A DNA stretch of 64,000 bases. It comes from an uncultured Patescibacteria group bacterium (GTDB lineage Bacteria; Patescibacteriota; JACMRA01). A program made the position numbers and the translations under genes. This document shows, piece after piece, positions 435-39,525 of the stretch (positions within the stretch are counted from its first letter, which is position 1; the number at the start of each line of letters is the position of its first letter). The stretch is from assembly GCA_938041505.1 (NCBI GenBank), contig CALITC010000006.1, positions 7,389 through 71,388 on the forward strand, written 5' to 3'. The notes beneath the pieces were generated by a model. It worked only from the letters and a program-made list of their open reading frames with translations, was not told the DNA's origin and did not search any database.

Positions 435-716
435 ATGGTCTACAGTCACTATAACGAAGGTGCGCAATCAGTAGCCAGCTGCAAATTCACAGTGACGACC
501 ATCAACTTAACAACTTCTATTCCAAATATTCTAAGCCTGTATATCGCCTTCAAGGTATTCTGGGATCAAAGCCCCAATAATAATTTTGGTAACCAGCAGG
601 TCGAGAAAACATTCAATAATCTGGTAGAGCATATAACTCTATACCACCAAGGTGCGCGCGGATCAGTACCCTGGCAAGTCTTTATAGACCAAGTCAAAGA
701 CGAAGTCTCCGCTTAA
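435..716 (+). CDS. hypothetical protein, possibly the 3' remnant of a degraded gene
   Basis: 93-aa ORF followed by a hairpin plus T-run (about 751-778); no recognisable motif. Confidence 0.3.
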   Translation: MVYSHYNEGAQSVASCKFTVTTINLTTSIPNILSLYIAFKVFWDQSPNNNFGNQQVEKTFNNLVEHITLYHQGARGSVPWQVFIDQVKDEVSA

Positions 717-791
717 CATAATAGTGGCAGCTTATGCCACCTCCGCCCTCCTTCTACAATGTTGTGGGGGATTTTTTGTAAATTACTTATA

Positions 792-5865: not shown

Positions 5866-6822
5866 ATGACTTTCGCCAAACACACCACAACCTCCCTTCA
5901 GGCGGTACAAGATACATTCAACCACACTCATAATTTTGCACCTCTTACATCAGATATTAACAGAATTTACTTTGTAGGTAGTGGATCCTCGTACTCACAA
6001 TCTATATATGGAGCACAATTAACTAGGAAATTTTTAGGCATAGAGGCTATTTACACTAATCCTTACTCTTTTGTTAAATACGATAATATCACATCGCATG
6101 ATTTAGTTATTCACCTATCACAAGAAGCAAAACGTAACGACAACAGGTGCCCGTTACTGCACGCAAAAAGGAAAGGGGCACGCACAATACTTTTCACTTC
6201 CAAAACAACAGATCTATATAACATTACCGATGAGGTGTATTGGTTTGCTCCTGAAATAGAAAAAATTCTTGTTGCCTCCATGAGTTATGCATCTGGTTAT
6301 GCGGCCCTGCTAAAATGGATAACTTTCCAATGCACACATAAAGACAACCCTGTGCCTCATATAGATTACAAAGTAATATCCGATGTAATGAGCACAAGAC
6401 TGAGTCAGAAGTTCCAAGTAACACCAGAATTCACTTGTTTTCTATATGCTGGTTTTGCTCAATCTGTCGCAGTTGAAGGAGCTCTTAAAATCAACGAATG
6501 TTTACTTATAGATAGCGAATCATATGAACTCAAACATTACTCACATGGAAAACATTTTGTAAGCTACAATAAGCCTCGATCCTACGTTGTTCTAGAGCAT
6601 ATTACAGATTCTGAGCTAGTCGACCTCTACAAAGATACTATTTTCGAACCTCACCACAACATCACCAGAATAGCAAGTTCTTTATCCCCAGAGCTCGCAG
6701 TATTCGAATGGCTAAGTGGTATGCTCAAATACACAGTAGATGGAATGCAGTCCGTACATCTAACACTAGACAAAATCCCAGTGAGAGATTCTATACGCAG
6801 ACCTCATCAATACAAATACTAA
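5866..6822 (+). CDS. double-SIS domain sugar-phosphate isomerase/deglycase (GlmS C-terminal / FrlB-like)
   Basis: IYFVGSGSSY, EGALKINE and YSHG motifs; 7 bp downstream of the kinase gene. Confidence 0.8.
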   Translation: MTFAKHTTTSLQAVQDTFNHTHNFAPLTSDINRIYFVGSGSSYSQSIYGAQLTRKFLGIEAIYTNPYSFVKYDNITSHDLVIHLSQEAKRNDNRCPLLHAKRKGARTILFTSKTTDLYNITDEVYWFAPEIEKILVASMSYASGYAALLKWITFQCTHKDNPVPHIDYKVISDVMSTRLSQKFQVTPEFTCFLYAGFAQSVAVEGALKINECLLIDSESYELKHYSHGKHFVSYNKPRSYVVLEHITDSELVDLYKDTIFEPHHNITRIASSLSPELAVFEWLSGMLKYTVDGMQSVHLTLDKIPVRDSIRRPHQYKY

Positions 6823-6830
6823 AACCAGAT

Positions 6831-7253
6831 CTATTTTACTCGTCTTTTGATCACCACCTCCACCTCATTGTCCTCCAAGTTAGTCAAGCTAAAACACCAT
6901 GGAGATCTTGTGTCTCCAGCGGCACAATTAGACTCATCCATACCCAACACTTCGTTGGCACCTACCGCCCCCGCGATATTGATAATGATCTCACTCTCCA
7001 TATCCGAACCTCCAAGCAGCTTAGCAAACTCCGTCCCTAAATCTTGAGCTGTGTGAATGTCTCGCCTATAATTAATAGTGTAGATATCCTCAGAATACTG
7101 AGCTTCAAAACCTTCCATATTCGATTCGTAAACTACCATATTATTTTCTGATGCAGATACTTGTTGCTCTGAAGCACTACTATTGGCAAAGTAACCAACT
7201 ACCCCAATAGTAAATAGTCCTAGCGAAATTGCTGCTGATACTTGTTTGATCAT
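6831..7253 (-). CDS. hypothetical exported protein
   Basis: N-terminal signal/TM segment followed by an acidic domain. Confidence 0.65.
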   Translation of the reverse strand: MIKQVSAAISLGLFTIGVVGYFANSSASEQQVSASENNMVVYESNMEGFEAQYSEDIYTINYRRDIHTAQDLGTEFAKLLGGSDMESEIIINIAGAVGANEVLGMDESNCAAGDTRSPWCFSLTNLEDNEVEVVIKRRVK

Positions 7254-31295: not shown

Positions 31296-31370
31296 TGGTG
31301 CCGAAGGACAGAATTGAACTGTCGACACGAGGCTCTTCAGGCCACTGCTCTACCACTGAGCTACTTCGGC
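31296..31370 (-). tRNA. tRNA-Phe(GAA)
   Basis: GCCGAAG...CTTCGGC-A-CCA; loop CT-GAA-GA. Confidence 0.93.
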
Positions 31371-35164: not shown

Positions 35165-36556
35165 TTAAAACTCTTCGATATCTCCATTCCAACCGCCGGT
35201 GTACAAACCCTCAACATCTACACGCGCATAACCATGAGCACCAAAGTGATCACGCTGTGCCTGGATAAGATTTGTTGGTAAGTGCTCAGAAAACATTGAT
35301 TGAAGATAGTTGTAAGTAGAGTGAATAACAGGTTTTGGCGTAATACCTTTGTACATAATCAAGCGTAGATTGTCCATATCTGCATGAATCTCCTTAAATA
35401 GTTTTTCTTTCCAGTTCTTATCTTCTTCCCAGAACAAATTCAACATACCAAGCATTTGAGATCGAATAATGCACCCGCCTTCCCAGATCCTTATCACTTC
35501 TTTCATATCGACACCCCAGTTCTCTTCTTGATTAGCTTGGTAGATCAGATCCAACCCTTGCAAATAGGAAGTAAGGAACATCAGCTCCATGGTACGATAC
35601 AGAGGAGTTTTGAGATTCTCGTGGGGTTTCTTAGGAACCTGCTGCTCATCCATAATATCTAAACCTTTTAGAAAAGACATATTCCGAGACGACTGTGTAC
35701 GCGCGATCACTGCAGCTGCGATGTTAGGCACTGCAACTCCGTATTTGAGAGCTGCTTCTACAGTCCACCCTCCTGTACCTTTTGCTTTGGCAACATCTTT
35801 GATTCTATCGACCAAATACCCAGTACCTTTGGTATCCTTTTTACCTAGAATATCTAGAGTAATATCCATTAAGAAACTCTGTGTATTCCCATAGTTAAGA
35901 CCACGAAAAACTTCTTGGATCTCTAAAGCACTGTGACCAAACGAGCGAAGCATATCATAAATCTCTCCAAGACCTTGCATCATAGCGTACTCAATACCGT
36001 TATGCACCATCTTCACAAAGTGACCGCTTGGCCCAGATCCAACGGGAGTTACGCAAGGGTGTCCTTGAAAATCTTTAGCTGCCACCTTTTCCAAATACGG
36101 CATAATCTTCTGAAGCGTTTCTGAATCCCCGCCTGGCATAATACTAGGTCCATGGAGAGCTCCATCGGCGCCCCCACTAATTCCACACCCTACAAAGCCT
36201 ACTTTACCAGCCAGCTCCTCTTGCCGGCGAACAGTATCATGCCAATTAGAGTTACCGCAATCAATTATCACGTCTTCCTCGCTAAGCATCGGTAAAAGTT
36301 CTTTAATTACTGCATCTACGGGATATCCACTCTTTACGAGTAGCATGATTTTCTTAGGAGACTCTAGACTTTCCACAAACTCTGCTGTAGTCTTGTATCC
36401 ATGAACTCGATCCGCACCTTTATCCAAGACATGTTGCGTCTTTTCCCAACTGCGATTATAGATTGCTGTATCATACCCTTTTGATGCAAAATTGAGAGCA
36501 AAATTACCTCCCATTGTACTCATCCCAATTATGCCGACGTGATTAGTTGATGTCAT
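35165..36556 (-). CDS. gnd: NADP-dependent 6-phosphogluconate dehydrogenase
   Basis: YNRS, IDCGNS, GISGG..GA..GPSIMPGG, VKMVHNGIEY, LIQAQRD.FGAH. Confidence 0.96.
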   Translation of the reverse strand: MTSTNHVGIIGMSTMGGNFALNFASKGYDTAIYNRSWEKTQHVLDKGADRVHGYKTTAEFVESLESPKKIMLLVKSGYPVDAVIKELLPMLSEEDVIIDCGNSNWHDTVRRQEELAGKVGFVGCGISGGADGALHGPSIMPGGDSETLQKIMPYLEKVAAKDFQGHPCVTPVGSGPSGHFVKMVHNGIEYAMMQGLGEIYDMLRSFGHSALEIQEVFRGLNYGNTQSFLMDITLDILGKKDTKGTGYLVDRIKDVAKAKGTGGWTVEAALKYGVAVPNIAAAVIARTQSSRNMSFLKGLDIMDEQQVPKKPHENLKTPLYRTMELMFLTSYLQGLDLIYQANQEENWGVDMKEVIRIWEGGCIIRSQMLGMLNLFWEEDKNWKEKLFKEIHADMDNLRLIMYKGITPKPVIHSTYNYLQSMFSEHLPTNLIQAQRDHFGAHGYARVDVEGLYTGGWNGDIEEF

Positions 36557-36622
36557 ATATATGTTACCTAAGCTAGTAGCTAATCTTTGTCAACGAATCC
36601 AAAGCAAATTTATAGAGTATGA

Positions 36623-36660
36623 CAAAAAAAATAAGAGCTTTCATTGAAAAAACTCTCTTA
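36623..36660 (-). terminator. terminator of tRNA-like unit 1
   Basis: Minus strand AGAGTTTT-loop-AAAGCTCT followed by a T8 run. Confidence 0.6.
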
Positions 36661-36668
36661 CTATTATA

Positions 36669-36740
36669 TGCCACGGCCTGGATTTGAACCAGGGACCTTT
36701 AGATTTTCAATCTAACACTCTACCACTGAGCTACCGGGGC
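36669..36740 (-). tRNA. second tRNA-Phe(GAA), no encoded CCA, one acceptor-stem mismatch
   Basis: GCCCCGG...CCGTGGC-A; anticodon arm TTAGA-TTGAAAA-TCTAA. Confidence 0.75.
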
Positions 36741-36759
36741 GGGCTTAATGTTAAGCCAA

Positions 36760-36870
36760 CGTGGATGAAAGGAGTTGAACCTTTGACACCTGGGGGCAAT
36801 ACTAAAGAGGTAAGTATTAAGGTTTTCCTCCTTGTAAGTCCCAGTGCTCTACCAACTGAGCTACATCCAC
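36760..36870 (-). tRNA. tRNA-like RNA with a 45-nt structured insert replacing the anticodon loop
   Basis: Perfect acceptor (GTGGATG/CATCCAC), D, T and anticodon (CTGGG/CCCAG) stems; 45-nt loop; no CCA. Confidence 0.75.
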
Positions 36871-36875
36871 AGGGC

Positions 36876-36954
36876 GAGAGTCAACGTGTACATAAATAAA
36901 TTTAATTTGATCGGAATGTAACAAAATCAAGTTATTTTCATAATGTTGACTCTC
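36876..36954 (-). ncRNA. long hairpin RNA in tRNA-like unit 1
   Basis: GAGAGTCAAC/GTTGACTCTC 10-bp closing stem with inner TTGAT/ATCAA stem. Confidence 0.5.
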
Positions 36955-36984
36955 ATATTATAAAAAAATTTTATAACGTTTCTC

Positions 36985-37013
36985 AAGCTAAAATAATTTT
37001 TGAAAACTGTCAA
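36985..37013 (-). promoter_or_regulatory. sigma70-type promoter of tRNA-like unit 1
   Basis: TTGACA-17-TAGCTT on the minus strand. Confidence 0.6.
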
Positions 37014-37016
37014 GAT

Positions 37017-37105
37017 TCAACTTACAATACTGAACTCAATTACATCTCCATCTTGCATCATATAGTCTTTTTCCTCCATATTCTCTGACCATTTCCTTTC
37101 TCCAA
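37017..37105 (-). pseudogene. diverged duplicate of the ychF 3' end
   Basis: Translates LEKG..NMEEKDYMMQDGDVIEFSIVS*, versus the ychF end MEKGKMNMEGKDYLMQDGDVVEFKIAG*. Confidence 0.85.
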
Positions 37106-37128
37106 GAAAGAGAAGATGTTTATTAAAC

Positions 37129-37160
37129 AAAAAAAACCCCATCTAAATATTTTGACGGAG
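37129..37160 (-). terminator. terminator of tRNA-like unit 2
   Basis: Minus strand CTCCGTC-loop-GATGGGG followed by a T8 run. Confidence 0.6.
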
Positions 37161-37174
37161 TAGGAGAAAAATTA

Positions 37175-37254
37175 GTGCGAGAAATAGTGGATAAAGTTTG
37201 CATTTTAAGGTAATTGAATGCAAACCAATTAACATTCCAATAGATTTATCGCAC
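37175..37254 (-). ncRNA. long bulged hairpin RNA in tRNA-like unit 2
   Basis: GTGCGA/TCGCAC closing stem, TGGA/TCCA, inner GTTTGCATT/AATGCAAAC. Confidence 0.5.
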
Positions 37255-37279
37255 AGGCTCACAGTGATGATAGAGCCAA

Positions 37280-37354
37280 AGCACCTGGATGGACTTGAAC
37301 CATCGTCACGTTGATTAAATAAGTCAACGACTCTACCAACTGAGTTACAGGTGC
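37280..37354 (-). tRNA. tRNA-Lys-like RNA with a 9-nt anticodon loop
   Basis: GCACCTG/CAGGTGC acceptor; arm GTTGA-CTTATTTAA-TCAAC; T arm GATGG-TTCAAGT-CCATC; no CCA. Confidence 0.75.
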
Positions 37355-37356
37355 AA

Positions 37357-37482
37357 ACAAGCTGATTTGAAGAGTTGCATGCATCAGCTTGTAAACATAA
37401 ATAATTCTGAAGATATCTCACAATTCCTGCCGAATGCTCTTATCGATAAAGAGGAATTGGAGTTGGAAAGATTTATGTGTTT
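37357..37482 (-). ncRNA. two stacked hairpins at the 5' end of tRNA-like unit 2
   Basis: ACAAGCTGAT/ATCAGCTTGT (37357-37392); ACATAAAT/ATTTATGT enclosing CAATTCCT/AGGAATTG (37393-37482); TTGACA at 37508-37513 upstream. Confidence 0.45.
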
Positions 37483-37569
37483 CTAATAAAACAAAACATG
37501 TTCATTTTGTCAACACAAAGGAGTATTGATTGTGGTTACGACCTCTCTACCGCCTAACCCTACAAGTAG

Positions 37570-38625
37570 CTACCCAGCTATCTTAAACTCTACCACGTCC
37601 CCGTCTTGCATTAGGTAGTCTTTGCCCTCCATATTCATCTTACCTTTTTCCATAGCTTGCTTGCGACCACCGAGTTCTACAAAATCAGCATATTTGATAA
37701 CCTCAGCTTTCACAAAATTCTTTTCAAAGTCAGTATGGATCACCCCGGCACACTGCGGAGCACTCATCCCCTGCTTGAATGTCCACGCTCTTGCTTCAAC
37801 TTCTCCAGCAGTTAGGTAAGTGGCTAAATTAAGGGTAGAGTAACACTCTTGTATCATCTTATCCAAACCAGTCTCCGCAGGCACTCCAAGCTCTACCCGC
37901 TCCTCTGAAGACATGTCTTGCAATTCTGACTCCAACTTCACATCCATTGCAAAATCACTTGTAAAATCAATATTTTCTCCATCAGTAATAATGTTAGCTA
38001 GCTTCAGGATCGGCTTATCTGTGAGTAAGTTAAGACTCTTACGGAAAATCTTAAGTTCTTTGTCAGCCTCCTCATCTCGGGGCACGGTATTGGCTGGATT
38101 ACTGCTCTGCAGCTGCTGCAATATTTCTTGAGCAAGTACTATCTTCTGATCTGCCAGCTTGTCTTTGCCGCCCTTAAGCTCCTTCTCAAGACGCGGCAAA
38201 GCTTTCTCAAGAGTAGCTTGATCTGCCAAAGTTAATTCCAAAATCAGAATATCAAAATCTTCTTGCGGATCTACCCGATTCTCGACGTGCACAACATCAT
38301 CATTCTTAAAGGCCCGAATCACCATCATAATCATATCCACTTCACGAATATGTGACAGGAATTTATTCCCTAGGCCAGCTCCAGAGTGTGCATCTTTGAC
38401 CAGCCCCGCAATATCACGAAATTCAATCGCCGCATGTACCAGCTTCTGCGCATTGACTAGTTTACCCAAAGTATCCACCCGCTGATCAGGTACAGAAACA
38501 ATCCCATCACTTGGCTCAATAGTGCAAAACGGGAAATTCTCCGCTGGCACAGAGCGCTTGGTTAGTAAATTAAAAAGTGTAGATTTTCCTGCATTAGGCA
38601 GGCCAACAAGTCCAACTGAAAGCAT
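37570..38625 (-). CDS. ychF: redox-regulated ATPase YchF
   Basis: GLPNAGKSTLFN, FPFCTIEP, DIAGLV, GLGNKFL, EGKDY.MQDGDV. Confidence 0.97.
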   Translation of the reverse strand: MLSVGLVGLPNAGKSTLFNLLTKRSVPAENFPFCTIEPSDGIVSVPDQRVDTLGKLVNAQKLVHAAIEFRDIAGLVKDAHSGAGLGNKFLSHIREVDMIMMVIRAFKNDDVVHVENRVDPQEDFDILILELTLADQATLEKALPRLEKELKGGKDKLADQKIVLAQEILQQLQSSNPANTVPRDEEADKELKIFRKSLNLLTDKPILKLANIITDGENIDFTSDFAMDVKLESELQDMSSEERVELGVPAETGLDKMIQECYSTLNLATYLTAGEVEARAWTFKQGMSAPQCAGVIHTDFEKNFVKAEVIKYADFVELGGRKQAMEKGKMNMEGKDYLMQDGDVVEFKIAG

Positions 38626-39110: not shown

Positions 39111-39187
39111 GGCGAAGTAGCTCAGTTGGTTAGAGCGCAGGACTCATAAGCCTGAGGTCGAGGGTTCAATTCCCTCCTTCGCTACCA
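39111..39187 (+). tRNA. tRNA-Met(CAT), elongator type (Ile2 not excluded)
   Basis: GGCGAAG...CTTCGCT-A-CCA; loop CT-CAT-AA; TTGACA promoter upstream. Confidence 0.9.
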
Positions 39188-39440: not shown

Positions 39441-39525
39441 ACCTTAACTATAATTCAGATTTCGCAAAAAAGAAGCCTGAACTATAATGGTACAGGCTCT
39501 CGAAGTAGCTCTTTAAGTTAGAAAA

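What the first reader, a model, noticed from the sequence alone, without database searches (positions are those of the whole stretch)
36760..36870. tRNA body with a 45-nt, two-hairpin domain in place of the anticodon loop
Seen (minus strand): GTGGATG TA GCTC AGTTGGTA GAGC A CTGGG [ACTTACAAGGAGGAAAACCTTAATACTTACCTCTTTAGTATTGCC] CCCAG GTGTC AAAGG TTCAACT CCTTT CATCCAC G. All four stems are perfect. The insert can form AGG-AAAA-CCT and AATACT/AGTATT hairpins. Established: self-splicing group I tRNA introns are far longer than the ~38 extra nt. The scaffold resembles tRNA-His but lacks G-1 and C73. The insert begins with A-CTTACAA, a Val-like loop shifted by one base. Inference: either a short protein-spliced intron in a bacterium or a tRNA scaffold displaying a functional RNA module.
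Basis: partly seen in the sequence, partly recalled or inferred. Interest (0 to 1): 0.8.

Follow-up and report, generated by a model that had tools for sequence, protein, structure and literature searches.

The report
Foreign tRNA gene with hairpin-blocked anticodon
A small marine bacterium carries an extra, apparently imported tRNA gene whose codon-reading loop is replaced by a 45-base hairpin, so it most likely cannot read codons and is probably a disabled passenger gene, not a new kind of intron.

Summary
Window 36760-36870 (-) is a full-length tRNA cloverleaf (Rfam 55.2 bits; 21 of 21 stem pairs) with 45 nt where the 7-nt anticodon loop should be. An independent assembly of the same sample reproduces it exactly.

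It is not an intron by any known route:
- 0 of 8 possible excisions give a loop with U33 and a purine at 37.
- There is no bulge-helix-bulge geometry.
- No splicing endonuclease was found in 0 of 301 genomes of the phylum, and no RtcB in this genome.
- No Rfam ribozyme or intron model matches.

The insert folds best as one long extension of the anticodon arm, not as two hairpins.

The gene belongs to a three-gene islet of tRNA genes that lack an encoded CCA, at a duplicated ychF 3' end. All 32 native tRNAs of this genome encode CCA. The scaffold is Phe-type, not His-type, and an intact tRNA-Phe lies 19 nt downstream.

No homologue was found in 177 distinct related genomes or by exact patterns in the public collections. 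Two analogous genes in other Patescibacteria are also singletons.

Most likely it is an inactivated, horizontally acquired tRNA gene (confidence 0.5). A working non-decoding tRNA-shaped RNA is not excluded. Unchecked notes of this scan describe similar objects on other DNA.

The parts
36840..36870 (-). 5' half of the tRNA body: acceptor strand GTGGATG, U8 A9, D arm GCTC-AGTTGGTA-GAGC, A26, and the 5' strand of the anticodon stem CTGGG
   Evidence: Sequence; Rfam RF00005 alignment
36795..36839 (-). 45-nt segment that replaces the 7-nt anticodon loop; single copy in the genome
   Evidence: Rfam alignment shows 45 nt for 7 model positions; BLAST of the insert against the whole genome finds no other match longer than 21 nt
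36800..36836 (-). Extension of the anticodon arm: UAC:GUA, one bulged A, AAGGAGG:CCUCUUU, closing a 16-nt apical loop. It is separated from the anticodon stem by an asymmetric internal loop (ACU on one side, UUGCC on the other)
   Evidence: Minimum-free-energy fold -34.3 kcal/mol, pair probabilities 0.88-0.92
36819..36833 (-). Alternative small hairpin AAGG-AGGAAAA-CCTT: a 7-nt loop with GAA at the anticodon positions and G where U33 should be. It competes with the long helix
   Evidence: It is the only 7-nt loop closed by 4 or more pairs in the insert. A GAA-centred loop of this kind arises in 243 of 20,000 dinucleotide shuffles. The fold containing it scores -29.6 against -34.3 for the best fold. 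I noticed it after the fact
36760..36794 (-). 3' half of the tRNA body: CCCAG, variable loop GTGTC, T arm AAAGG-TTCAACT-CCTTT, acceptor strand CATCCAC, discriminator G; no encoded CCA
36741..36759 (-). 19-nt spacer that forms a hairpin (GGCTTAA/TTAAGCC) between the insert-bearing gene and tRNA-Phe
   Evidence: RNAfold -6.7 kcal/mol
36669..36740 (-). Intact tRNA-Phe(GAA) without encoded CCA and with one C:U mismatch in the acceptor stem; second Phe gene of the genome
   Evidence: ARAGORN and Rfam 72.3 bits; 62% identical to the native tRNA-Phe
36625..36657 (-). Terminator-like 10-bp stem followed by a run of 8 U, after tRNA-Phe
   Evidence: RNAfold -9.8 kcal/mol. The consensus scanner missed it because the stem is A+T-rich
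36957..36986 (-). Promoter-like site TTGAGA-N18-TATAAT, about 87 nt upstream of the insert-bearing gene
   Evidence: 11 of 12 consensus matches. Weak evidence: 5 sites found in the region against 4.0 +/- 2.1 in shuffles
37017..37100 (-). Remnant of a second ychF 3' end (reads ...MEEKDYMMQDGDVIEFSIVS*), 78% identical over 51 nt to the end of the intact ychF 553 nt upstream
37280..37354 (-). Third CCA-less tRNA gene: perfect stems but a 9-nt anticodon loop CTTATTTAA; lies between the two ychF-end copies
   Evidence: Rfam 55.8 bits with 5 nt for 3 model positions; sequence; ARAGORN calls it Asn(att), or Lys(ttt) with a 2-nt intron

Best explanation
This is a supernumerary tRNA gene of foreign origin with a Phe-type scaffold. 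It sits in a small islet of three tRNA genes without encoded CCA that entered the chromosome at the 3' end of ychF. A 45-nt quasi-palindromic segment has replaced its anticodon loop and turns the loop into a roughly 10-bp extension of the anticodon arm. Inferred course: the gene is probably transcribed together with the intact tRNA-Phe 19 nt downstream, from a promoter-like site to a U-rich terminator. The acceptor and T arms should still let RNase P, 3' trimming and the CCA-adding enzyme act on it. The product would then be a tRNA-shaped RNA of about 111-114 nt. It has no usable anticodon loop, carries G73 instead of the A73 of tRNA-Phe, and therefore should be neither charged nor used in decoding. 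In short, it is an inactivated passenger tRNA gene, too recently disabled for its stems to have decayed, and not an intron-bearing gene. Shown: the structure, the foreignness, the redundancy, the absence of known splicing features, the lack of homologues. Inferred: transcription, processing, lack of charging, and non-function.
For: Foreign and redundant. All 32 other tRNA genes of the genome encode CCA. Only the three genes of this islet and one odd gene on contig C21 do not. In relatives, 25 of 26 tRNAs printed encode CCA. No RNase Z match above the family cut-off in 0 of 26 family genomes. The body is at most 70% identical to any class I tRNA of its own genome. Native Val(UAC), Val(GAC) and Phe(GAA) genes exist elsewhere. 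The islet lies at a duplicated ychF 3' end, and 0 of 29 relatives have a tRNA directly downstream of ychF. The neighbours are aberrant too: a 9-nt loop and a C:U acceptor mismatch.

Not spliceable by a known route. 0 of 8 excisions give U33 plus a purine at 37; ARAGORN's Val solution needs a shifted register with an A:C mismatch; there is no bulge-helix-bulge geometry. EndA was found in 0 of 301 phylum genomes, while the control found it in 4 of 4 archaea. No RtcB in this genome. No Rfam family in the insert at E up to 1.

Not conserved. A covariance model of the whole 111 nt finds only ordinary tRNAs of 72-75 nt in 25 family, 26 class and 150 sampled phylum genomes, together 177 distinct genomes besides this one (best 59.1 bits against 143.9 for the gene itself). 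Exact-pattern scans found nothing in metagenome, viral or genome contigs. Analogous insert-bearing tRNA genes in two other Patescibacteria genomes are each found in 0 of 40 relatives, which suggests such genes are short-lived.

Phe-type scaffold. The body is 54 of 66 identical to a CCA-less tRNA-Phe(GAA) of a 482-kb viral contig.
Against: The body shows no decay at all: 21 of 21 stem pairs and all tertiary-contact bases are intact. Its neighbour with the 9-nt loop also has perfect stems. Two changes that both fall in anticodon loops while the stems stay untouched is not what random decay predicts. The gene sits in a tidy unit with promoter-like site, spacer hairpin, tRNA-Phe and terminator. 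The insert is structured (z -2.56) and contains a Phe-like GAA hairpin (243 of 20,000 shuffles). No mobile-element gene is nearby to explain the import. The 82% match to the phage tRNA-Phe is inflated: 27 nt were the search pattern, and the 3' acceptor strand follows from complementarity. The independent part is the variable loop (5 of 5), the anticodon stem (3 of 5) and the T arm (10 of 17). The genome is only 69% complete, so the missing enzymes are weak evidence within this genome. Expression was not tested at all.
Confidence: 0.5

Rival explanations
1. It is a working, non-decoding tRNA-shaped RNA. The tRNA body serves as a handle for RNase P, the CCA-adding enzyme or another tRNA-binding protein. 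The extended arm is the functional part, for example a decoy for a tRNA-targeting enzyme, or a display of the AAGGAGG / CCUCUUU pair or of the 16-nt apical loop.
For: Perfect cloverleaf and tertiary bases. The changes are confined to the anticodon loops in two genes of the islet. The gene lies in its own promoter-to-terminator unit. The arm is stable. tRNA bodies with loops of 20-48 nt recur sporadically in bacteria and phages, some with encoded CCA and inside phage tRNA arrays. An unchecked note of this scan describes a conserved 'anticodon-less' tRNA-Pro-shaped gene in Berkelbacteria (e1-814647).
Against: No homologue in 177 distinct related genomes or in the public collections. The two other Patescibacteria examples are singletons as well. 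No defence or tRNA-targeting gene among 10 neighbouring proteins. The best match of the insert to other DNA of this genome is 21 nt at 90% identity.
Confidence: 0.25
2. It is a true intervening sequence, removed by an enzyme not yet known in bacteria, or by one supplied by the phage or element that donated the gene. The product would be a tRNA with an 8-nt loop ACUUACAC carrying UAC, or another non-standard loop.
For: The UAC triplet pairs with GUA of the insert, as anticodon and intron pair in eukaryal and archaeal pre-tRNAs. ARAGORN models a 36-nt intron. Lak megaphage tRNAs carry conserved 'enigmatic introns' with no known mechanism (PMC6784885, passages read). A viral Phe-type gene (L265) has a 22-nt hairpin placed 5' of a perfect ATGAAAA loop, which looks excisable.
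Against: 0 of 8 excisions give a canonical loop. There is no bulge-helix-bulge motif. ARAGORN's model needs an A:C mismatch and an extra junction base. EndA in 0 of 301 phylum genomes; no RtcB in this genome. A Phe-type body with G73 and a Val anticodon fits no synthetase identity set that I recall. Val(UAC) is already encoded elsewhere.
Confidence: 0.1
3. The insert is the footprint or an empty copy of a small hairpin insertion element, or of a cassette that targets tRNA anticodon loops and brings its own replacement tRNA. That would explain the intact tRNA-Phe next to a disrupted Phe-type gene. This rival is about origin and is compatible with the best explanation.
For: A direct repeat ACTTAC flanks an 18-nt piece of the insert that holds the GAA hairpin, and the insert is quasi-palindromic (reading). 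A Phe-type disrupted gene lies 19 nt from an intact tRNA-Phe. Unchecked notes of this scan describe hairpin elements and nuclease cassettes in tRNA loops of Patescibacteria and other phyla (e1-825933, e1-794510, e1-4439378). Partial internal tRNA duplications occur in other genomes (L096, L102, L108, L159).
Against: The insert is single-copy in this genome. No nuclease, integrase or transposase gene is nearby. Removing one repeat and the piece between the repeats still leaves a 21-nt loop. The two Phe-type genes are only about 68% identical.
Confidence: 0.15

Closest known systems
'Enigmatic' conserved introns in tRNA genes of Lak megaphages (Devoto et al. 2019, PMC6784885; passages read; the intron sizes are in a supplement I could not open)
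   Same: A short insertion that is not a group I intron, in the anticodon region of an otherwise normal bacterial-world tRNA gene, with no known removal mechanism. The gene is detected only when intron-aware settings are used.
   Different: The Lak introns are identical across cohorts and lie in phage genomes. This insert is a singleton in a bacterial chromosome, and no excision restores a canonical loop.
Archaeal and eukaryal pre-tRNA introns cut at a bulge-helix-bulge motif by EndA and joined by RtcB
   Same: Similar length class (tens of nt), position in the anticodon loop, and pairing of the anticodon triplet with the insert.
   Different: No bulge-helix-bulge geometry, no clean exon junction, no EndA in 0 of 301 phylum genomes and no RtcB in this genome.
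Group I introns in bacterial tRNA anticodon loops (tRNA-Leu(UAA), tRNA-fMet, tRNA-Ile2; tRNAscan-SE 2.0 paper PMC8450103, passages read)
   Same: Insertion in the anticodon loop of a bacterial tRNA gene.
   Different: Those introns are mostly over 200 nt with a catalytic core. Here there are 45 nt and no Rfam intron match at E up to 1.
Horizontally acquired accessory tRNA clusters and arrays with CCA-less and pseudo-tRNA genes (PMC8421152 and PMC4758250; search listing and abstracts only)
   Same: Extra tRNA genes that differ from the native set, are clustered, and lack CCA in a genome whose native genes encode it.
   Different: Published arrays hold 20 or more genes. This is a three-gene islet, and two of its members have enlarged anticodon loops.
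Natural tRNAs with non-canonical anticodon arms (tRNA-Pyl, mitochondrial tRNA-Ser(UCN), tRNA-Sec; Krahn et al. 2020, PMC7609411, passages read)
   Same: An intact L-shape scaffold with an unusual anticodon arm.
   Different: In those tRNAs the stem grows from 5 to 6 pairs with small breaks, and the 7-nt loop is kept. Here about 10 further pairs and a 16-nt apical loop replace the loop.

Membership tests
Canonical tRNA (Rfam RF00005) | Cloverleaf with 7/4/5/5-bp stems and the conserved tertiary bases (U8, A14, G18 G19, T54 Psi55 C56) | tested here: met
   55.2 bits, model positions 1-71, gathering score 29; 21 of 21 stem pairs by reading
Canonical tRNA (Rfam RF00005) | 7-nt anticodon loop with U33 and a purine at position 37 | tested here: not met
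   45 nt in place of 7; 0 of 8 excisions restore U33 and R37
Canonical tRNA (Rfam RF00005) | A 3' CCA that is encoded or can be added | tested here: inconclusive
   CCA is not encoded. A protein of the CCA-adding enzyme family is present (PF01743, 113.8 bits). RNase Z was not found
BHB-type (archaeal/eukaryal) tRNA intron | Two 3-nt bulges on opposite strands, separated by a 4-bp helix, at the exon-intron borders | tested here: not met
   Enumeration found no such geometry with meaningful flanking helices. The real fold has a 3 x 5 internal loop
BHB-type (archaeal/eukaryal) tRNA intron | Splicing endonuclease (PF01974) and RtcB ligase (PF01139) in the genome | tested here: not met
   Neither found in this genome, which is 69% complete. 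PF01974 in 0 of 301 phylum genomes, 253 of them at least 90% complete; the controls rang
Group I intron in tRNA | Catalytic core (P3-P9), usually over 200 nt, match to the Rfam intron model | tested here: not met
   45 nt; no Rfam match other than tRNA at E up to 1 across 36600-37450, apart from two chance-level hits elsewhere in that stretch
Lak-phage-type 'enigmatic' tRNA intron | The same insert conserved in the same tRNA across related genomes | tested here: not met
   No homologue in 177 distinct related genomes or in the public collections
Miniature hairpin repeat or insertion element (RPE/REP-like) | Several copies per genome | tested here: not met
   Single copy; the next best BLAST match is 21 nt at 90%; the genome is 69% complete
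Miniature hairpin repeat or insertion element (RPE/REP-like) | Terminal inverted repeats and a target-site duplication | tested here: inconclusive
   The direct repeat ACTTAC and inverted segments are present, but removing them does not restore a 7-nt loop (reading)
tRNA-Phe | GAA anticodon in a 7-nt loop and discriminator A73 (identity set recalled, not from a call) | tested here: not met
   The discriminator is G. GAA occurs only in an internal hairpin with G33. The scaffold features are Phe-like: GTGTC variable loop in 5 of 7 Phe and 1 of 88 others

The most novel reading that the evidence does not exclude
Small-genome bacteria and their phages may maintain tRNA-shaped RNAs in which a structured hairpin deliberately replaces the anticodon loop. 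Such an RNA would enter tRNA processing and bind tRNA-binding proteins but never decode, acting for example as a decoy or regulator. Alternatively the insert may be removed by a still unknown bacterial or phage splicing activity. This gene, with its flawless scaffold, its own transcription unit and an embedded Phe-like GAA hairpin, would be one working example.
Probability: 0.3. Interest if true: 0.75.

Novelty: new member of a known kind. Interest (0 to 1): 0.35.

Why it matters
On its own this gene is most likely a disabled passenger, of interest mainly for annotation. Default ARAGORN misses it, and the intron-aware mode labels it tRNA-Val with an intron, which is misleading.

Its wider value is as one more data point for a scattered and barely described phenomenon: intact tRNA scaffolds in bacteria and phages whose anticodon loops hold 20-50-nt structured inserts that no known enzyme removes. 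The only published case I found is the Lak megaphage 'enigmatic introns'. If even some of these are spliced, or work as non-decoding RNAs, that would add a new class to bacterial RNA biology. A systematic census together with RNA data would settle it.

Tried and rejected
- Sequencing runs: only one run, a marine metagenome that is probably the source sample, holds the locus; no RNA holder was listed. Expression therefore stays untested, and this is no evidence either way.
- Exact-pattern scans for the insert core found 0 hits in metagenome, viral and genome contigs. Scans for the 3' half of the body found 0 in metagenome and viral contigs. Scans for the anticodon arm of the 9-nt-loop neighbour and of the extra tRNA-Phe found 0 in viral contigs.
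- BLAST of the islet against 50,697 phage records gave only generic tRNA matches covering at most 10% of the query.
- DNA search in 60 relatives gave only generic tRNA and ychF matches.
- Loci next to tRNAs similar to the extra tRNA-Phe hold only ordinary tRNAs of 72-74 nt, many in rRNA operons.
- No integrase, transposase, nuclease or phage protein among the neighbouring ORFs (Pfam and PHROGs). No PADLOC defence family among 10 neighbours.
- Tandem duplication of a 'ychF end + tRNA' unit as the origin of the two odd tRNAs: rejected. The two bodies are about 64% identical by my hand count, which is background level, and the spacers show no similarity.
- tRNA-His identity: rejected as background similarity.
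- An ORF started by the AAGGAGG motif: rejected by reading, since there is no ATG, GTG or TTG at a suitable distance.
- A Phe-specific insert-agnostic pattern in viral contigs gave 4 hits. Three were false: ordinary tRNA-Phe followed by another tRNA.
- Searches failed on a parameter (a locus id where a genome handle was needed). I repeated them correctly.
- The papers' supplements, including the Lak intron table, were closed, so the sizes and positions of the Lak introns could not be compared.

Full report
OBSERVATION. The Rfam tRNA model aligns to it from model position 1 to 71 at 55.2 bits (E 3.7e-9 for the window), with 45 nt in place of the seven loop positions. By reading, all 21 stem pairs are Watson-Crick, and U8, A14, G18 G19, C48 and the T-loop are in place. 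ARAGORN at default settings does not report the gene. With introns allowed it reports tRNA-Val(tac) with a 36-nt intron. A Logan contig of 7,806 nt (depth 17.4), from the one public run that holds the locus, covers 36400-37700 with no difference and no gap. That run is a marine metagenome and probably the source sample, so this rules out an artefact of one assembler but is not independent replication.

FOLD OF THE INSERT. The minimum-free-energy structure keeps the cloverleaf and extends the anticodon arm. After the stem CUGGG/CCCAG comes an asymmetric internal loop (ACU against UUGCC). Then follow UAC:GUA, one bulged A, and AAGGAGG:CCUCUUU, closing a 16-nt loop (-34.3 kcal/mol; pair probabilities 0.88-0.92). 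The stability is only moderately unusual: whole RNA z -2.56 (2 of 200 shuffles as good), arm alone z -1.97 (6 of 200).

THE HOST AND THE LOCUS. The window is ordinary bacterial chromosome. It encodes RNase J, L34 and the RNase P protein, a sortase, 6-phosphogluconate dehydrogenase, YchF, RsmI and exonuclease VII. The genome is 1.12 Mb in 26 contigs and 69% complete. Its phylum, as sampled, has genomes of 0.5-2.0 Mb. I infer Patescibacteria/CPR from this, but no call names the organism.

The genome has 36 tRNA-like genes by both ARAGORN with introns allowed and Rfam. Thirty-two of them encode their 3' CCA. The four that do not are the insert-bearing gene, the tRNA-Phe(GAA) 19 nt downstream of it (36669-36740), a tRNA with a 9-nt anticodon loop CTTATTTAA at 37280-37354, and an odd gene on contig C21. 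In relatives, 25 of 26 tRNAs that I printed encode CCA. No genome of the family (0 of 26) has an RNase Z match above the family cut-off. A protein of the CCA-adding enzyme family is present. The genome already has Val(UAC), Val(GAC), Lys(UUU), Lys(CUU) and a CCA-bearing Phe(GAA).

The three islet genes are at most 62-70% identical to any native class I tRNA, which is background similarity. Downstream of the intact ychF there is a second, diverged copy of the ychF 3' end. It is 78% identical over 51 nt, lies 553 nt away, and reads ...MEEKDYMMQDGDVIEFSIVS*. The 9-nt-loop tRNA lies between the two copies, and the other two genes lie after the remnant. None of 29 relatives has a tRNA directly downstream of ychF, and gene order around ychF is not conserved. 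I therefore read the islet as imported DNA at a rearranged ychF end. No integrase, nuclease, phage or defence gene is nearby.

The insert-bearing gene and tRNA-Phe sit between a promoter-like site (TTGAGA-N18-TATAAT, 11 of 12) and a 10-bp stem followed by eight U. Expression itself is untested.

IS IT AN INTRON? With the Rfam register, none of the 8 ways of removing one block to leave seven loop bases gives U33 and a purine at 37. ARAGORN's Val model needs an eighth acceptor pair, an extra base between the D and anticodon stems, and an A:C mismatch closing the anticodon stem. A search for two 3-nt bulges on opposite strands separated by a 4-bp helix found nothing with sensible flanking helices. 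PF01974 (splicing endonuclease) and PF01139 (RtcB) were not found in this genome. PF01974 was found in 0 of 301 genomes of the phylum, 253 of them at least 90% complete, while the control found it in all four archaea. No Rfam family other than tRNA matches the region at E up to 1, apart from two chance-level hits elsewhere in the stretch. Published bacterial tRNA introns are group I introns, mostly over 200 nt (PMC8450103, passages read).

HOMOLOGUES. A covariance model of the full 111 nt scores 143.9 bits on the gene itself. Elsewhere it finds only ordinary tRNAs of 72-75 nt: 25 family genomes (best 56.7 bits), 26 class genomes (no hit at E 1e-12) and 150 sampled phylum genomes (three ordinary 73-nt tRNAs, best 59.1 bits). 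Together these are 177 distinct genomes besides this one. The insert is single-copy in the genome. Exact patterns for the insert core and for the 3' half of the body found nothing in metagenome, viral or genome contigs.

WHAT KIND OF SCAFFOLD. The top covariance-model hits are a mix of isoacceptors, and the best match in the genome is tRNA-His at 70%. But the variable loop GTGTC occurs in 5 of 7 distinct tRNA-Phe and in only 1 of 88 other class I tRNAs among the 95 I held. The exact 27-nt 5' end also occurs once in the viral collection, in a CCA-less tRNA-Phe(GAA) within a seven-tRNA cluster of a 482-kb contig. Identity to that gene is 54 of 66, but 27 of those positions were the search pattern and the 3' acceptor strand follows by complementarity. 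The independent matches are the variable loop (5 of 5), the anticodon stem (3 of 5) and the T arm (10 of 17). Three further phage tRNA-Phe genes share the same D-arm, the first three bases of the anticodon stem and their partners (CTG...CAG), and the variable loop. These were found by a pattern containing those features, so they share them by construction.

I conclude, with moderate confidence, that the scaffold is Phe-type. The discriminator is G, not the A73 that I recall for tRNA-Phe.

After seeing this, I noticed that the insert contains AAGG-AGGAAAA-CCTT. It is the only 7-nt loop closed by four or more pairs in the insert. It carries GAA at the anticodon positions and G where U33 should be. 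A GAA-centred loop of this kind arises in 243 of 20,000 dinucleotide shuffles. The fold that contains it is 4.7 kcal/mol worse than the best fold. This was noticed after the fact and is only suggestive. The hexamer ACTTAC flanks this piece as a direct repeat (reading).

IS THERE A CLASS? Of 234 matches, 144 have an intact acceptor stem (at least 6 of 7), T stem and anticodon stem around a 'loop' of 19-48 nt. Most of these are archaeal introns, eukaryote-type tRNA-Tyr introns (giant viruses, or likely contamination in MAGs) or partial internal duplications.

A minority are bacterial or phage genes like this one:
- L136 (a Saccharimonadales MAG; its anticodon stem is only 4 of 5, so it is not among the 144) and L142 (a Patescibacteria MAG, 44 nt).
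- L083, L171 and L182 (Lachnospiraceae, with identical 21-nt loops).
- L147 and L248, and L211, L256 and L279, which share motifs within their groups.
- L231, L293, L265 and others.

None resembles this insert. L136 and L142 are each the only over-long class I tRNA of their genome, and each was found in 0 of 40 relatives at E 1e-8. The examples I could test are thus sporadic.

The Lak megaphage paper reports conserved 'enigmatic introns' in phage tRNAs (PMC6784885, passages read). A review of non-canonical tRNAs lists nothing beyond 6-bp anticodon stems with small breaks (PMC7609411, passages read). A search for 'tRNA intron' together with 'Patescibacteria' returned no paper. Earlier notes of this scan, which are unchecked, describe similar objects in other genomes.

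READING. The gene is real, foreign, redundant, unlikely to decode and unlikely to be spliced by any known route. Neither it nor the two analogues I tested are conserved. I therefore favour an inactivated passenger tRNA gene (0.5).

Against this stand the flawless scaffold, the fact that two genes of the islet are altered only in their anticodon loops, and the tidy transcription unit. These keep a working non-decoding tRNA-shaped RNA alive as a rival (0.25). A true intron removed by an unknown activity gets 0.1. An origin by a loop-targeting insertion element (0.15) is compatible with the favoured reading.

What I could not do: test expression, see any close strain, or read the supplements of the Lak paper.

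Noticed in passing
window 37280-37354 (-): A tRNA gene with perfect stems, no encoded CCA, discriminator U and a 9-nt anticodon loop CTTATTTAA. ARAGORN reads it as Asn(att), or as Lys(ttt) with a 2-nt intron. Its 3' trailer starts with TTGGCT followed by a hairpin, as does the trailer of the insert-bearing gene.
   Followed up: partly
window 37017-37100 (-), compared with 37570-37640: Remnant of a second ychF 3' end (78% identical over 51 nt, 553 nt downstream of the intact end). This looks like the scar of an integration or rearrangement, but no integrase is nearby.
   Followed up: partly
window 36669-36740 (-): A second tRNA-Phe(GAA) of the genome: CCA-less, with a C:U mismatch in the acceptor stem, and only 62% identical to the native tRNA-Phe at 31296-31370. 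A relative (G001, locus L060) also has a CCA-less tRNA-Phe.
   Followed up: partly
L314 (G000:C21) 6778-6849 (-): A weak tRNA-like gene (32.2 bits), CCA-less, that folds with a 7-bp anticodon stem, a 5-bp D stem with a 4-nt loop and a 3-nt variable region; the loop is GCAUUAA.
   Followed up: no
L265 (viral contig of 89.9 kb), around 692-754 (-): A Phe-type tRNA whose last seven loop bases, ATGAAAA, form a perfect Phe anticodon loop. A 22-nt hairpin is inserted between the 5' stem strand and the loop, next to a duplicated ATGA. It looks like an excisable non-canonical insert in a phage tRNA.
   Followed up: no
L142 (Patescibacteria MAG), L211, L256, L279 (viral); L147 (Rhodobacterales MAG), L248 (viral): Two apparent sequence families of 35-48-nt anticodon-loop inserts shared between bacterial and viral tRNA genes: 'AAACGAACG ... 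CAGCAA' and 'CCCTCA ... GGTGAAGG.CCA ...'. Some of the genes encode CCA and lie in phage tRNA arrays.
   Followed up: partly
L083, L171, L182 (Lachnospiraceae MAGs): An identical tRNA-shaped gene with a 21-nt loop GGAATGGTAGTAATTTGCCCC in three genomes.
   Followed up: no
L096, L102, L108, L159: Bacterial tRNA genes whose enlarged 'loop' is a partial internal duplication of the tRNA itself (anticodon loop through T arm).
   Followed up: no
window 39113-39134 and 39501-39522: The 5' end of tRNA-Met (39111-39187, +) is repeated 388 nt downstream at 82% over 22 nt. This may be chance or an old attachment-site scar.
   Followed up: no
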